A stretch of DNA of 64,000 bases. Source: Candidatus Spongiihabitans sp. GTDB lineage: Bacteria; Pseudomonadota; Gammaproteobacteria; Arenicellales; Poriferihabitantaceae. Below are positions 13,832 to 18,483 of the stretch, piece after piece. Below the pieces are notes generated by a model. That model ran no database searches and had not been told where the DNA came from. It worked only from the letters and a program-made list of their open reading frames with translations. Each line of letters begins with the position of its first letter. Position 1 is the stretch's first letter. The stretch is taken from NCBI GenBank assembly GCA_965206355.1, contig OZ242212.1:2014814-2078813 (forward strand). The letters are read 5' to 3'. The position numbers and the translations under genes are program-made.

Positions 13832-14130
13832 TGTATTACAGCATTTACGCAACCGATGTCACAAATAGTCTGGAAAATCGCCTCAAAACGCGCATCGCCC
13901 ATATTGAACGCTTAAAAGAATTAGTCAATCAGGGGCGATTACTGGTTGCCGGACCCAGTCCCGCGATTGATAGTGAAGAGCCGGGAGCCGCCGGCTTTAG
14001 CGGCAGTGTAATCATCGCCGAATTTGATTCATTAGAAGCCGCCCAAAGCTGGGCAGAAACCGACCCATATTGGGCTGCGGGTGTTTATGAAAGCGTGGAA
14101 GTAAAACCCTATAAAAAAGTGCTACCTTGA
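13831..14130 (+). CDS. yciI: YciI family protein
   Basis: 99-aa ORF with [22 protein letters not shown] and DPYWAAGVY motifs; its start overlaps the yciB stop (ATG within TAATG). Confidence 0.8.
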
Positions 14131-14183
14131 GATTTAGCTTGTTTTGATTGCCACAAGGGTGAATAATTAAACATTCATAATTC

Positions 14184-14345
14184 GAGACCTTTGCACGAAA
14201 GCCATTTCACCTGCATGCTGCGTCGCCTAAAAGCGCCTACTGTTGGTAAAATCGTACTCAATCGGTCATTTATAAGCATAAACTCCCTCATTCCGTGCGT
14301 TTTTGCCTGGCCTGAAAGCGAAATCATCTTCCGTGCAAAGATCTC
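14184..14345 (+). mobile_element. MITE copy 3 (162 bp, long variant)
   Basis: Same termini as the other copies, plus a 23-bp internal insert CGCCTAAAAGCGCCTACTGTTGG. 5-bp duplication AATTC (14179-14183 and 14346-14350). Confidence 0.85.
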
Positions 14346-14514
14346 AATTCGTAATTACTCTCCCCTCTGTCGCTATTTTTTCTTCCTGACTTCGCGGTCT
14401 ACTGTTTCTAAATCGCTGACGGCCCAGTAAATACAGGAGTCTTTTGTTGAGATCGGTTTGCAATGCCTAGGTATTCTTTCTTTCCTTTATAAATCAATAG
14501 GTTAGACAACGAGT

Positions 14515-17500
14515 TTAGAGCCGGATGATGCCTTTCAGCAGGATGGCGTGCTCGGCACCGCCAGCGCTTTCGCTACGCTCGCCCACCAAGTTCAGATCGA
14601 ACAACGAATCTACCCCCCAATTCATCCCCAAACGGTAACGCTGGGCGGAGTTACTGGAGGTCATCTCGGCGTAAGGTGCCAGCAGCCCATGCCCGCCAGG
14701 TGCAGTCAGCCCGTAGCCGAGGCGCGTCTCCATCCGCATATCGTTATCCTGCTCGTCACTGATCTCTTCGAACAAGCCATCCTGCCACAGGGTTTGCGTG
14801 CCGCTGGCAGCGTTGCCGTAGACCGGACTCATACTGAACGATAGCCCTCGCCCGTCGCTACCCGTCTGTAGAAGTATTCGCCCAGAAACACCCCATTCCT
14901 GATAATCGGCCCGACCCAGCAGGGTGCGCACATTGCCTTCCACATTTAGCCCAACCGCAGGGTCGGCGTAGCACCAACCGGTCCCTAGCTCAAACCCGAA
15001 ACCAGTATCGCCGCCGCCGTCATAGCGCGCACCAGCCTCGAAACTCTGCTCCAGGTACGCCTCGCCAGACAACATCTGCCTGTGAGACCCTTCCAGAGCC
15101 ATCCGCAACAAGCTGGAATCCGTCTTCAGCGCCGCTATGCGACCGTTGCCCTTGACTTCCGAGTCGCTCAGCACACCTGAACCCTTTAGCCGGAAGATGG
15201 TCGTGCCCGGTAACTGATAATTGCCGCCTGCGCCCAGCATGCGCGTCTCGACATCGCTGGATGCTCGACCTTGTCCATCGGTGATTTCCAGATCGCCTTG
15301 ACCGAAACCAGCGGTAGCCCACAGGTCCAGCCCGGACAGCGTCTCCCAACTCGCGTAAGGATGGAGGGTGGTGATCTCCAACTGGTGCTCGCCGTGACCA
15401 GAGTCGCCTCGGTAATCAATATCGCTCTCGCTCCAGGAGGCCGCCACACCAATCAGCAGATCATCACGGAGTTTGCCATCTACGCCCAGCTGGGCACTGA
15501 ATAAATCGCCATCGAAATCCACGCCATTGCCGGAACCCTCGAAATCACGGTAGTCACCACCGCCCCAGAAGGTCAGGGAGGAGCCGCCGATGCCGCCGCT
15601 TGTGCCGCCGCCGCCAGTGCCATCCACAGCGTTCAAGGGCAAGGCGAAGCCGGAATTGCCGAGCATGGCCTTCACGTCCAACGTGCCATCAACTATGCCT
15701 TGTCCGTGCGCGGTTGCCACCCCAGCCAAGCTGGACTGCCCAGCGAAGGTGAGCGACTGGTTCGCACCAGTCCGGACTTGATCCATGCGCTGGGTTATCG
15801 CATCCACCGTCTGGTTGGTCAGGGCGCGCGCCACTTCCGGCAGAATCGTGTTGTTGAGATCGGTGAAGGCCTGTGTTTTGCTGGTGGTGATGGTAACGGT
15901 ATCCGCTACCGAGTCACTCACGCCATCGTTCACGGTCAAGGAGAACACCAGCACCACATTGGTCAGCAGATTGGCAGGTGCAGTGAAGGTCGGTGCGAAG
16001 GTGTCCGCGCCGGTCAGGGTCACTGTTGGTGTGCCGACCTGCCTCCAGGCGCAGATCAAAGCGCTGTTATCACCATCCGGATCGTCACTTCGACTGCCGT
16101 CCAGGGTGACGCTCGCGCCCTCGGCGACGGTCTGGTCAAGACCGGCATCGGCGGTGGGCGCGTCATTGGCCTGATTAACGCTCACGGTTGCCGTGGCCGT
16201 GACACTAAAATCAGTGCCGTCGGAGACGCTGAAGGTGAAGGTCGCATCGCCGTTGACATTGAGCGCCGGGGTATAGACCAGATTCGGAATACCGGCAACG
16301 GGAATCACTTGCCTCGCGGTAACCGCTGTGCCGTTCAGTGCCAGGCTGCCGCTGGTGCTGGCGGGTAGGGTATCGATACGCACTGCTTGCAGGCTGCCGC
16401 TAGCGCCCCCATTCCTAAAGGTGAAGTCCGCCTCCTTAAAGGTATAGGCGGTATCCTCAAGCGTCGTGACCGTCAGATCGCGGGTGGTGGGGGTACCCGT
16501 AGCAACGATGTTCAGGGTGGCCGTAGCGGGCGCGGCACTGAAGTCAGTGCCGTCAAAGACGCTGTAGGTAAAGGTATCTACTGTGCCAGCGGAATTCATG
16601 GCCGGGTGATAGAACAGGATGCCGAGCAGGTTAACGGGAAGCACTTGCCCCGCGATCACTGGTGTGTTGTTCAGGGATAGTAAACCGGCAGCGGGCAGGC
16701 TATCAATGCGCAGGCTGTGTAGCGTGGCACCGTCCGCATCGGCAAAGTTAAACTCGGCCACCCCCAAGTTATGGGCGGTACCCTCGAAGACTGTGACCGC
16801 CAACCCACTCGAGGTCGGCGGGCTATCCGTAGTAACGATGTTCAGGGTGCCCATAGCGGGCGCGACACTGAAGTCAGTGCCGTCGGAGACGCTGTAGGTA
16901 AAGGTCGCTGTGCCAGTGGTATCGGCCGCCGGGGTATAGACCAGAGTCGGAATATCGGCAACGGCAATCACTTGGGCCACGGTGACCGGCGCACCGTTCA
17001 GGCGCAGGTCGCCCAGGTTGGCGGGGGCGGGCAGGCTATCGATGCGCACTTGTTGCAGGCTATCGCCGATGTCCACATCGTTAAAGTTGAAATCATCCGC
17101 CAGGTTAAAGCCGGGATTACCCGCCGCAAAGGTATAGGGGGTATTCTCGAAGACTGTGACCTCCAGCCCGCTGGTGGTGGGCGGGGTATTGGTCCTTCTC
17201 ACCACTGGTAGCCCTCCCAACGCTGCTAGAAGCAGATCCTCAGCGTTATTCTGAAGATCAGTAAATCTGATGTCCAGATAGATAGGACCGCCGACATTGT
17301 CCTCTGTCAGCGTGTAGGTAGTGGAGTTCGCATTCGCGATCGGCGTCAGCCCTAATGCAAGCCACTGGTAGCTAAAGGCGGACGCATCGGTGGGCAGACC
17401 ATCAGCATCTTCTATGGTAGATATATCCGCCGTCAGGGTCGCGCCCACGCGCCTATCATCACCAATGACCGCGCCACCCGTGGCCTTGGTATTCTGCGCC

Positions 17501-17691
17501 ATGGCCTCGGTTGTCGAGAACAGCGATACCAGCAGAACCGTCAGCAGGCAACACCAGAACGGTCCTGAGTGTCCCTGAGAGTGGCCTTGTGGCCCAAAAA
17601 TCGGGGGGGGGGGGGGGGGGGGGGGGGTACTGGTGTGCCTGGTTTTGACGGGCTTATGGATGGTTGTACTCATGGCTGTATATGTGTGCAT
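14515..17691 (-). CDS. autotransporter-type outer-membrane adhesin (four cadherin-like ~110-aa repeats, a PKD-like domain and a C-terminal beta-barrel)
   Basis: 1058-aa ORF with signal-like segment FWCCLLTVLLVSLFSTTEAMA|Q. Four repeats of the pattern V.E.T.Y.F...F.F.D....L..VRIDSLP..G.L.LNG..V...Q.I....I..LVYTP...G...F.YSV.DG.DFS. The PKD-like block reads ANDAPTADAGLDQTVAEGASVTLDGSRSDDPDGD. A Gly/aromatic-rich C-terminal ~450 aa is typical of autotransporter barrels. The gene is visibly more GC-rich than its neighbours. Confidence 0.7.
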   Translation of the reverse strand: MHTYTAMSTTIHKPVKTRHTSTPPPPPPPPIFGPQGHSQGHSGPFWCCLLTVLLVSLFSTTEAMAQNTKATGGAVIGDDRRVGATLTADISTIEDADGLPTDASAFSYQWLALGLTPIANANSTTYTLTEDNVGGPIYLDIRFTDLQNNAEDLLLAALGGLPVVRRTNTPPTTSGLEVTVFENTPYTFAAGNPGFNLADDFNFNDVDIGDSLQQVRIDSLPAPANLGDLRLNGAPVTVAQVIAVADIPTLVYTPAADTTGTATFTYSVSDGTDFSVAPAMGTLNIVTTDSPPTSSGLAVTVFEGTAHNLGVAEFNFADADGATLHSLRIDSLPAAGLLSLNNTPVIAGQVLPVNLLGILFYHPAMNSAGTVDTFTYSVFDGTDFSAAPATATLNIVATGTPTTRDLTVTTLEDTAYTFKEADFTFRNGGASGSLQAVRIDTLPASTSGSLALNGTAVTARQVIPVAGIPNLVYTPALNVNGDATFTFSVSDGTDFSVTATATVSVNQANDAPTADAGLDQTVAEGASVTLDGSRSDDPDGDNSALICAWRQVGTPTVTLTGADTFAPTFTAPANLLTNVVLVFSLTVNDGVSDSVADTVTITTSKTQAFTDLNNTILPEVARALTNQTVDAITQRMDQVRTGANQSLTFAGQSSLAGVATAHGQGIVDGTLDVKAMLGNSGFALPLNAVDGTGGGGTSGGIGGSSLTFWGGGDYRDFEGSGNGVDFDGDLFSAQLGVDGKLRDDLLIGVAASWSESDIDYRGDSGHGEHQLEITTLHPYASWETLSGLDLWATAGFGQGDLEITDGQGRASSDVETRMLGAGGNYQLPGTTIFRLKGSGVLSDSEVKGNGRIAALKTDSSLLRMALEGSHRQMLSGEAYLEQSFEAGARYDGGGDTGFGFELGTGWCYADPAVGLNVEGNVRTLLGRADYQEWGVSGRILLQTGSDGRGLSFSMSPVYGNAASGTQTLWQDGLFEEISDEQDNDMRMETRLGYGLTAPGGHGLLAPYAEMTSSNSAQRYRLGMNWGVDSLFDLNLVGERSESAGGAEHAILLKGIIRL
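17603..17627. repeat. 25-nt homopolymeric G tract (poly-C on the coding strand)
   Basis: Counted directly in the sequence. It lies 64 nt downstream of the autotransporter ATG and encodes the poly-proline run between the start codon and the signal-like segment. Confidence 0.9.
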
Positions 17692-17694
17692 AAT

Positions 17695-18483
17695 CTATTC
17701 CTCCTCGTGCTTGTGACTGTACTCATGTTTGTATTGATATTTGATGCTACTAGATATTGGACAAATTTTCAACTCCTCGCCAACGCCCTCAGCGGAACCC
17801 GACGTAACGACTGCCACCTGTTCGACAACCGCAGCACCAATACGTGATGCTTGCGCCGACAAATCAGCCGAATTAAGCGCATATTGAATATTAAGCATCT
17901 CGGTTTCGCTGGTGAGATGCGTTTGCGCATAATTACGCGCAAACTCGGTTGATCTTAACAACTCCGATTTATCAACCACCGTGGATAGGCGTACTTTTGC
18001 GCGGTCATGATCCAGAGCTTGTCCACCAATGCGGGCGGCGGCAAAGCCTGCTCCCAGAAGCCCTCAAAATCGTCCCTTTGATGCTCCTAAGCGTTTACTG
18101 GCGGCATCGCGTTTTTCTATTGCCCGCTTTCGGCGTTGTAGCTTTTTAAGAGAAGCAGAAAGCCGATCATGCTCTTTGATGACAGAACCGATCTCAATCC
18201 CATAGGCACGTGCCTCACGTTTAGCCTGTCGATATTTTTGTTCGACCACCTCAATACCTGCCGCCAATCGCTGGCTTGATCCGCCCACAGCGGCTTGCTT
18301 GGCTTTTAAGTCGGTGAGCGTCTTTTTATAATGAATAACCCCTTTAGCCGCCCTGAGCTTGACATCCGTTTTGGTGACGGTTTCGCCAATTTGTGCTATA
18401 TTCTTGTGAACAGCACCAACAATCTGTTTGAATTTACCACCCAGAGCGGCTCCGATGACAATACCCAGTGATAAAGTTTTCAT
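17695..18483 (-). pseudogene. phage tail tape-measure protein remnant (5' part only, in-frame TGA at 18064-18066)
   Basis: ORFs 18064..18483 and 17695..17979 are in the same frame and separated only by one TGA. The sequence is coiled-coil and Ala/Gly-rich (LGASKGRF*GLLGAGFAAARIGGQALDHDRAKVRLSTVVDKSELL) and follows gpE/E' as in P2-like phages. It stops after ~260 codons, directly against the autotransporter start. Confidence 0.55.

What the first reader, a model, noticed from the sequence alone, without database searches (positions are those of the whole stretch)
17603..17627. 25-nt poly-G/C tract in the 5' coding region of the autotransporter: a candidate phase-variation switch
Seen: an uninterrupted run of 25 G (C on the coding strand) begins 64 nt after the only available ATG and precedes the signal-like hydrophobic segment. 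No alternative ATG/GTG/TTG start lies between the tract and the signal sequence, so translation must pass through the tract. Established: homopolymeric tracts in the 5' ends of surface-protein genes cause slipped-strand on/off switching in Neisseria, Haemophilus, Campylobacter and Bordetella. At the present length the gene is in frame (ON), and any change of one or two nucleotides would truncate the protein after ~30 codons. A run this long is also a classic site of sequencing or assembly error.
Basis: partly seen in the sequence, partly recalled or inferred. Interest (0 to 1): 0.6.

Follow-up and report, generated by a model that had tools for sequence, protein, structure and literature searches.

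The report
Poly-C on/off switch in adhesin gene
A run of 25 C's lies between the start codon and the export signal of a surface-adhesin (autotransporter) gene of an uncultured, probably sponge-associated bacterium, and it most likely acts as a slippage-prone on/off switch of a kind known from pathogens, although its variability could not be measured here.

Summary
An uninterrupted G25 (C25 on the coding strand) lies at window 17603-17627. It starts 64 nt after an ATG with a good ribosome-binding site and precedes the hydrophobic export signal of a 1058-aa autotransporter.

No ATG, GTG or TTG lies in frame between the tract and the signal, so translation must read through the tract. At 25 C the gene is in frame. 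At 24 or 26 C the product would be 49 or 77 aa.

The tract belongs to a set. The chromosome holds eight G/C runs of 11-25 nt where about 0.1 is expected. Five sit just behind start codons (three exported proteins, this adhesin and a Type III methylase), one is a remnant of a homologous leader, and one lies upstream of another autotransporter.

Related genomes show the same layout. One has about 30 such leaders with C17-C36, about 11 in frame and 19 out. Paralogs with identical flanks differ in tract length.

Best reading: a slipped-strand phase-variation switch like meningococcal nalP and ausI (confidence 0.7).

This scan has already reported the same theme on other DNA, including another gene of this genome. 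I class it as a new member of a known kind, in a group where I found no published description.

The parts
17603..17627 (-). Homopolymeric tract: C25 on the coding strand (G25 on +). It codes the last two bases of Thr22 and Pro23-Pro30 (7 x CCC, then CCG).
   Evidence: CCC is only 22.7% of Pro codons in long ORFs of this genome.
17700..17706 (-). Shine-Dalgarno-like GAGGAGG, 8 nt upstream of the ATG
   Evidence: Read directly.
17628..17691 (-). Translated leader before the tract (MHTYTAMSTTIHKPVKTRHTST). ATG at 17691-17689 and a second in-frame ATG at 17673-17671.
   Evidence: It is 80% identical at DNA level to a second leader with C19 at G000:C1:833567-833702.
17497..17602 (-). Post-tract part of the export signal: IFGPQGHSQGHSG, then the hydrophobic core PFWCCLLTVLLVSLFSTT, then a likely signal-peptidase site AMA/Q. 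There is no in-frame ATG/GTG/TTG before residue 64.
   Evidence: The signal-peptide reading is inferred from the sequence; no predictor was run.
14515..17691 (-). Whole gene: 1058-aa type Va autotransporter adhesin. Passenger of Big_9 / cadherin-like / PKD-like Ig folds, with a C-terminal Autotransporter beta-domain.
   Evidence: GC is 0.56-0.58, against 0.43-0.47 in the flanks.
17744..17772 (-). Sigma-70-like promoter match TTGAAA-17-TAGCAT, about 50 nt upstream of the ATG
   Evidence: This is a consensus match only, 9 of 12 positions, not evidence of function.

Best explanation
The C25 run is a simple-sequence contingency switch.

The gene is translated from the ATG at 17691. The ribosome reads 21 leader codons, then the tract as Thr-Pro8, then the hydrophobic export signal, the Ig-like adhesin passenger and the outer-membrane barrel.

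During replication the two strands of the homopolymer can misalign, so daughter chromosomes gain or lose one or more C:G pairs. Lengths of 25 plus or minus 3n keep the adhesin in frame (ON). All other lengths end translation after 49 or 77 residues with no export signal attached (OFF).

The population would therefore always contain cells with and without this surface protein. Switching here would be independent of the other tracts in the genome, which gives combinatorial surface variation.

Shown here: the anatomy, the lack of any other start, the pure-homopolymer coding, the genome-wide and family-wide recurrence, and the mixed frame states.

Inferred: that the length actually changes at this locus, at what rate, and that expression follows it.
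For: (1) Anatomy. SD-ATG, 64 nt, C25, then an export signal without its own start.

(2) The DNA, not the protein, is constrained. There are 7 consecutive CCC codons where CCC usage is 0.227. The only other Pro run of 5 or more in long ORFs that is not a tract uses four different codons.

(3) A genome-wide set. The chromosome has eight G/C runs of 11-25 nt, and none of 10.
- C14 in a periplasmic binding protein gene (in frame).
- C15 in a lipoprotein gene (out of frame with its SD-ATG).
- C23 in a lipoprotein gene (in frame).
- G24 in a DNA methylase gene next to a Res-like helicase (out of frame).
- C25 here (in frame).
- G19 in a remnant of a homologous leader.
- G12 about 105 nt upstream of a 1615-aa autotransporter.
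- In addition, a C8 in a subtilase autotransporter (out of frame).

(4) Homolog pair. P0003 carries ATG-leader-C7TC12 and a signal peptide without its own ATG. P0005 has the same mature N-terminus with its own ATG and no tract.

(5) Relatives. Runs of at least 12 G/C occur in 20 of 24 genomes of the same family, against 3 of 16 in other families of the order. Genome G009 has 34 such runs (C17-C36). About 30 have the SD-ATG-leader-polyC-long-ORF layout, about 11 in frame and 19 out, close to the 1:2 ratio expected if frame is random.

(6) Tracts change faster than their flanks. G009 L037 (C19) and L044 (C24), and G006 L126 (C14) and L127 (C16), have 100% identical 100-nt flanks on both sides.

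(7) The mechanism is established for poly-C tracts in the coding regions of the meningococcal autotransporter genes nalP and ausI (PMC5472700). Homopolymers at 5' gene ends have been shown to be hypermutable (PMC2831843).
Against: No read-level or strain-level data for this locus could be obtained. The protein is unique in the protein collection. No near-identical contig was offered.

Homopolymers of 20-36 nt are hard to size in any sequencing chemistry. The ON state here, and the in-frame/out-of-frame census in relatives, could therefore partly reflect assembly error rather than biology.

Identical flanks in paralogs could be kept by gene conversion rather than by recency.

MutS and MutL are intact, so there is no mismatch-repair defect to raise slippage further.

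Expression of the gene was not tested. Its promoter is only a consensus match.
Confidence: 0.7

Rival explanations
1. The tract works as a leaky dimmer, not a heritable binary switch. It is so long that RNA polymerase slippage on the G25 template and ribosome slippage on eight identical CCC codons produce all three frames from any DNA length. The tract would then set a low, noisy expression level, further tuned by EF-P-dependent poly-proline stalling, rather than ON or OFF.
For: All three frames of the tract read poly-Pro, so re-pairing is perfect in any register. EF-P is present. Tract lengths of 17-41 nt in this family far exceed what is needed for a DNA switch. Transcriptional slippage on long homopolymers, and +1 slippage at CCC-C, are known from my own knowledge; I did not check this in a paper here.
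Against: No RNA data could be examined. This reading does not exclude DNA slippage, which must also occur at such a length. No frameshift-stimulating RNA structure is detectable around the tract (z = 0.36).
Confidence: 0.12
2. The tract is a neutral mutational by-product. This lineage has a replication or repair bias that expands G/C runs, and the tracts mark genes that are dispensable or decaying. They would not be a selected switch.
For: Long G/C runs are a family-wide trait. One copy of this very leader heads a dead remnant (61-aa ORF). Half of the tract-bearing genes in this genome are out of frame. The gene sits in a mosaic accessory region of deviant GC.
Against: The runs are not scattered. 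Most lie within about 20-110 nt after a start codon of otherwise intact long ORFs of 360-1058 aa and more, before the export signal, and mostly with C on the coding strand. Downstream ORFs of more than 600 codons stay open in about 30 G009 loci, whatever the frame of the leader. That pattern argues for purifying selection on genes that are only temporarily off.
Confidence: 0.1
3. Assembly or sequencing artefact: the true sequence has a short or no C run, or a mis-joined contig created it.
For: Long homopolymers are classic error sites. Some poly-G hits in a relative sit at contig ends, as two-colour-chemistry artefacts do (G030).
Against: The tract is internal to a 2.36-Mb contig and is flanked by unique, coding sequence that is in frame across it. 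A homologous leader with C19 exists elsewhere in the genome. The same layout is found in independently assembled genomes and in an ENA contig. An artefact would not be placed repeatedly between start codons and signal peptides.
Confidence: 0.05

Closest known systems
[quoted passage not shown]
   Same: Type Va autotransporter. A homopolymeric C run on the coding strand in the 5' coding part. Frame, and so expression, depends on tract length. About half, or a random share, of copies are found in frame.
   Different: The tract here is much longer (25 nt; 17-41 nt in relatives) than I recall for the meningococcal tracts; their length was not checked here. The passenger is an Ig/cadherin/PKD-type adhesin, not a protease. 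The organism is an uncultured marine, probably sponge-associated, gammaproteobacterium. Variation is not demonstrated.
[quoted passage not shown]
   Same: A repeat placed right after the start codon of an autotransporter gene, ahead of the signal peptide and mature protein, so that the whole protein depends on the repeat number.
   Different: Tetranucleotide repeat rather than homopolymer. No sequence homology of the leader.
Homopolymeric tracts at 5' ends of genes as a general reversible inactivation device (Orsi et al. 2010, PMC2831843; inlA poly-A)
   Same: A 5'-proximal homopolymer in a surface-protein gene. A frameshift gives a short truncated peptide.
   Different: That study concerns short poly-A/T runs (about 7 nt). 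Here the run is a very long G/C tract, part of a multi-locus set.
Poly-G contingency loci of Campylobacter jejuni and Helicobacter pylori, including the capA autotransporter and phase-variable Type III mod genes (from my own knowledge, not checked here)
   Same: A genome-wide 'phasome' of G/C homopolymers in surface-structure genes and in a Type III methylase gene.
   Different: Those tracts are typically 8-13 nt. C. jejuni lacks functional mismatch repair, whereas MutS and MutL are intact here.

Membership tests
Simple-sequence contingency (phase-variable) locus, intragenic homopolymer type | Hypermutable simple repeat inside the 5' coding region (or promoter) | tested here: met
   Uninterrupted C25 at codons 22-30. 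It is far longer than the background run-length distribution.
Simple-sequence contingency (phase-variable) locus, intragenic homopolymer type | Reading frame of the functional protein depends on repeat number, with no bypass start | tested here: met
   No in-frame ATG/GTG/TTG between the tract and the hydrophobic signal. C24 gives 49 aa and C26 gives 77 aa. Non-canonical starts (ATT, CTG) are not excluded.
Simple-sequence contingency (phase-variable) locus, intragenic homopolymer type | Repeat number varies within populations or between close strains | tested here: inconclusive
Indirect evidence exists. The homologous leader in the same genome has C19. Paralogs with identical flanks in relatives differ by 2-5 nt. 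About 11 of about 30 leaders in G009 are in frame and 19 are out.
Simple-sequence contingency (phase-variable) locus, intragenic homopolymer type | Expression switches with repeat number | not testable with these tools
   Needs reporter fusions, proteomics or immunodetection.
Type Va (classical) autotransporter | C-terminal Autotransporter beta-domain (PF03797) | tested here: met
   40.1 bits against a cut-off of 26, E 4.8e-10, residues 710-825 matching profile positions 3-124. C-terminal 560 residues are 64% identical to two other autotransporters of the genome. No solved structure was found by sequence.
Type Va (classical) autotransporter | N-terminal Sec signal peptide followed by a passenger domain | tested here: inconclusive
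   A hydrophobic core (residues about 44-61) and an AMA/Q site can be read from the sequence. The passenger is Big_9, Cadherin_5 and PKD-like. No signal-peptide predictor was available.
ESPR-type extended autotransporter signal peptide (PF13018) | Conserved ESPR motif in the N-terminal extension | tested here: not met
   No ESPR hit in the Pfam scan of the whole protein. The 43-residue extension is a lineage-specific leader plus poly-Pro.

The most novel reading that the evidence does not exclude
The SD-ATG-short leader-polyC unit may be a portable 5' cassette. On this reading it replaces the native start codon of exported-protein genes and spreads between genes by recombination, possibly using the tract itself as the joint. 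That would give a whole family of marine symbionts a plug-in stochastic switch.

At 25-40 nt the tracts are so unstable, and so prone to RNA-polymerase and ribosome slippage, that they would act as a population-level dimmer rather than a clean heritable ON/OFF switch.

Hints:
- The same leader heads two different downstream sequences in this genome.
- One leader is shared by G001 and G006 in front of different ORFs.
- P0003 and P0005 differ only in cassette versus native ATG.
- In G009 the former start codon is kept, but it sits in the loop of a covarying GC hairpin.
Probability: 0.2. Interest if true: 0.7.

Novelty: new member of a known kind. Interest (0 to 1): 0.45.

Why it matters
Phase variation by simple repeats has been worked out almost entirely in host-adapted pathogens and commensals of vertebrates.

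This locus is one of eight long G/C tracts in a 2.4-Mb genome. It points to the same bet-hedging strategy in uncultured marine, probably sponge-associated, symbionts. The tracts there are two to three times longer than I recall for the classical pathogen cases, and up to about 30 switchable adhesin genes occur per genome in relatives.

If confirmed, the surface of these symbionts would be a stochastic mosaic. That bears on how they avoid being eaten or recognised by a filter-feeding host and its phages.

It also matters practically. Gene callers and MAG pipelines will mis-annotate these genes as truncated or as pseudogenes, depending on a homopolymer length that the assembly cannot fix reliably.

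Tried and rejected

2. Near-identical strains. The protein's 90% cluster has one member. An exact look-up of the neighbouring yciB-like protein found nothing. A flank-anchored pattern with a variable gap found nothing in JGI metagenomes.

3. Genome-contig scan. The best hit (OZ242251, labelled Pseudohongiella sp. MAG, 79% identity over residues 58-570) is an internal repeat block of a larger protein, not an orthologous 5' end.

4. DNA search with the leader in 40 relatives matched only the homopolymer itself, apart from the second copy in the own genome. The leader sequence is therefore species-specific.

5. mRNA structure around the tract that could sequester the SD or stimulate frameshifting: none (MFE -39.7 against shuffles -41.0, z = 0.36). 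A 12-nt imperfect inverted repeat flanking the tract was seen in that fold, but it is not significant.

6. ESPR-type extended signal peptide: not detected.

7. Solved-structure relatives of the C-terminal 461 residues by sequence: none.

8. The four G12 runs on contig C2 were set aside. C2 has no match to the chromosome. It consists of about 3.9-kb tandem units with reverse-transcriptase-like ORFs and poly-A runs, so it looks like host DNA.

9. Mismatch-repair loss as the cause of tract instability: rejected. MutS and MutL are intact.

10. Literature. Four full-text searches and one paper check found no description of poly-C switches in sponge-symbiont autotransporters.

Full report
**1. Observation**

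The + strand carries exactly 25 consecutive G at window 17603-17627. On the minus strand this is C25 inside the only long ORF of the region, 14515..17691, 1058 aa.

The ORF starts with ATG at 17691-17689, preceded by GAGGAGG (17706-17700) with an 8-nt spacer. A second in-frame ATG lies at 17673-17671. The tract begins 64 nt after the first ATG and is read as the end of Thr22 plus Pro23-Pro30.

After the tract come:
- IFGPQGHSQGHSG;
- the hydrophobic core PFWCCLLTVLLVSLFSTT;
- AMA/Q, which I read as an export signal with a signal-peptidase site. This is an inference from the sequence; no predictor was available.

A script confirmed that the first in-frame ATG/GTG/TTG after the tract is the ATG of residue 64, behind the hydrophobic core.

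With 24 C the frame runs into TGA 19 codons after the tract (49-aa product). With 26 C it stops after 47 codons (77 aa).

Pfam finds four Big_9 repeats, Cadherin_5, a PKD-like domain and the Autotransporter beta-domain above its gathering score. The gene is therefore a type Va autotransporter with an Ig-like adhesin passenger.

**2. Is it more than chance?**

The genome laid in the Python box has 2.39 Mb in 3 contigs, GC 0.47. In the chromosome, G/C runs fall off steeply: 1380 of 5 nt, then 200, 50, 16, 2, and 0 of 10 nt. Then eight runs of 11, 12, 14, 15, 19, 23, 24 and 25 nt appear. Extrapolating the decay predicts about 0.1 runs of 11 nt or more.

The proline stretch is written only in CCC, although CCC is 22.7% of proline codons in long ORFs. 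The only Pro run of five or more that is not one of these tracts uses four different codons. What is conserved is the DNA homopolymer, not a poly-proline peptide.

**3. The other tracts of the genome**

- C14 at C1:267823 lies 22 nt after the SD-ATG of a periplasmic binding protein gene. In frame.
- C15 at 573482 lies in the leader of a lipoprotein gene. Out of frame with its SD-ATG.
- C23 at 604410 lies 55 nt after the SD-ATG of another lipoprotein gene. In frame.
- G24 at 1494068 lies 108 nt after the ATG of an N6/N4 DNA methylase gene, which is followed by an 890-aa Res-like helicase gene. This is a Type III restriction-modification module. Out of frame.
- G12 at 1927164 lies about 105 nt upstream of the ATG of a 1615-aa autotransporter.
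- G19 at 833567 follows a leader that is 80% identical at DNA level to the leader studied here. The identity runs from about 48 nt upstream of the ATG to about 20 nt beyond the tract. This copy now heads only a 61-aa ORF, so it is a remnant.
- G11 at 1547806 was not resolved.
- A C8 at 2115757 puts a subtilase autotransporter out of frame. An earlier report of this scan (e1-2203876) described it, and I confirmed the S8 domain and the frame.

Most long G/C runs therefore sit just behind start codons of exported or surface proteins, or in a methylase gene. Three are in frame and three are out. This is the signature of a set of contingency loci.

**4. Related sequences**

The protein itself is unique in the 5.8-billion-protein collection.

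Its closest full-length homolog is P0003 (51% identity, an ENA metagenome contig). Its layout is ATG, 12 leader codons, C7TC12, 'GATCGAATC', and a signal peptide that has no ATG of its own.

The next homolog, P0005, has the same mature N-terminus but its own ATG directly before the signal peptide, and no tract. The leader-plus-tract unit thus stands in for a native start codon.

Across 40 relatives, runs of at least 12 G/C occur in 20 of 24 genomes of the same family. They occur in 3 of 16 genomes of other families of the order, and one of those three shows contig-end artefacts.

Genome G009 (another genus, 2.3 Mb) has 34 runs of C17-C36. About 30 have the layout SD-ATG, 15-35 leader codons, poly-C, then an ORF open for more than 600 codons. 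About 11 are in frame and about 19 are out, close to the 1:2 ratio expected if frame is random.

Same-genus genomes G001 and G004-G006 show the same layout at many of their 7-20 tracts, mostly with C on the coding strand.

Two paralog pairs have 100% identical 100-nt flanks on both sides but different tract lengths: G009 L037 (C19) and L044 (C24), and G006 L126 (C14) and L127 (C16). The tract therefore changes faster than its surroundings, unless this is assembly error or gene conversion.

**5. Mechanism**

The best-supported mechanism is slipped-strand mispairing at the homopolymer during replication. It would give heritable but reversible frame changes, and so stochastic ON/OFF expression of the adhesin, independent of the other tracts.

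This is the mechanism accepted for the poly-C tracts in the coding regions of the meningococcal autotransporter genes nalP and ausI, and for the AAGC repeats just after the start codons of autA and autB (PMC5472700). Orsi et al. measured hypermutability of 5'-proximal homopolymers (PMC2831843).

MutS, MutL and EF-P are intact in this genome. The tracts therefore exist in a repair-proficient background, and the Pro8 stretch can be translated with EF-P.

What is not shown is the decisive point: that the length varies at this locus and that expression follows it.

**6. Rivals**

(a) A leaky dimmer. With 25 identical bases, RNA-polymerase slippage and ribosome slippage on eight CCC codons are plausible. 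They would blur ON and OFF. This was untested because no RNA data could be reached.

(b) A neutral by-product of a lineage-specific expansion bias. The placement of the tracts argues against it, as do the long ORFs that stay open downstream of out-of-frame leaders.

(c) An assembly artefact. The tract is internal to a 2.36-Mb contig, the gene is in frame across it, and the layout recurs in independent assemblies. The existence of a long tract is therefore safe, but the exact number 25, and so the ON state, is not.

**7. What could not be done**

No near-identical strain was offered by any look-up.

A fold of the mRNA leader shows no structure beyond shuffled controls.

**8. Comparison and novelty**

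By mechanism and layout this is a member of the known class of intragenic homopolymer contingency loci in autotransporter genes. Its differences from the classical cases are:
- the tract length (25 nt here, up to 41 nt in relatives);
- the number of such loci per genome in the family;
- the ecological setting.

Relatives are ENA metagenome chromosomes labelled 'Gammaproteobacteria bacterium' or 'Pseudohongiella sp.'. The sponge association comes from earlier notes of this scan and was not verified here.

Four literature searches found no description of such switches in sponge symbionts. The scan itself has already reported the same theme at least 16 times in at least 14 genomes, including another gene of this genome.

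I rate this locus as a new member of a known kind, with moderate interest.

Noticed in passing
G000:C1:1494068-1494091 (outside the window; locus L136 568-591): A G24 run lies 108 nt after the ATG of a DNA methylase gene (PF01555; motifs IIHGDNLDAL and DPPYNTG). An 890-aa Res-like DEAD helicase gene follows it. This is a Type III restriction-modification module whose mod gene is out of frame in the assembly, so it is a candidate phasevarion.
   Followed up: partly
G000:C1:267823-267836, 573482-573496, 604410-604432 (loci L133-L135): C14, C15 and C23 runs lie directly behind the start codons of a periplasmic binding protein gene (in frame) and two lipoprotein genes of unknown family (one out of frame, one in frame). 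The switch is therefore not confined to autotransporters.
   Followed up: partly
G000:C1:833464-833702 (locus L025 about 1398-1640): A second copy of the same leader (80% DNA identity from -48 to +20 around the tract), with C19. It is followed by a short signal-peptide-like ORF with its own ATG and an early stop. It is a decayed paralog or a relic of cassette transfer.
   Followed up: partly
G000:C1:1927164-1927175 (locus L138 5164-5175): A G12 run lies about 105 nt upstream of the ATG of a 1615-aa autotransporter, directly before a TTGCAT hexamer. It may be a promoter-spacing type of switch rather than a frame switch. The region upstream shares a repeat (TTATG..TATAAATGACCGATTGAG...GCATGCAGGTGAAA) with the 833-kb remnant locus.
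   Followed up: no
G009 loci L035, L037, L039, L044, L046, L049, L057, L058, L061, L063 and others: In this related genome, about 18 of 32 tract loci keep an in-frame ATG 31-34 nt after the poly-C. That ATG sits in the loop of a 7-10-bp GC hairpin whose stems covary between paralogs (GGCGGGCG/CGCCCGCC, GGGAGGCG/CGCCUCCC, GGGGGGCG/CGCCCCCC). The two other frames hit stops just before it. The hairpin may suppress independent initiation, or it may couple initiation to the leader ORF.
   Followed up: partly
G001 L115, and G006 L126 and L127: The same 90-nt leader (SD-ATG-MKSSFTIKTLNNHIVT) heads tracts of C21, C14 and C16. The sequence and ORF after the tract differ between G001 and G006, which suggests leader swapping at or near the tract.
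   Followed up: no
G000 contig C2 (22,331 bp): This contig has no match to the chromosome. It consists of about 3.9-kb tandem units with reverse-transcriptase-like and Pro/Ser-rich ORFs, and poly-A runs of 26-58 nt. It looks like eukaryotic (host) DNA binned with the bacterial genome. Its four G12 runs are unrelated to the switch.
   Followed up: partly
window 14001-18000: The autotransporter gene has GC 0.56-0.58, against 0.43-0.47 on both sides. This is consistent with foreign origin or with its Gly/Ala/Thr/Asp-rich composition.
   Followed up: no
However, the 45 nt upstream of the ATG are homologous to the second leader copy at 833 kb. The junction with the prophage fragment must therefore lie at least 45 nt upstream, and the end of the 94-aa ORF overlaps the leader cassette.
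   Followed up: partly
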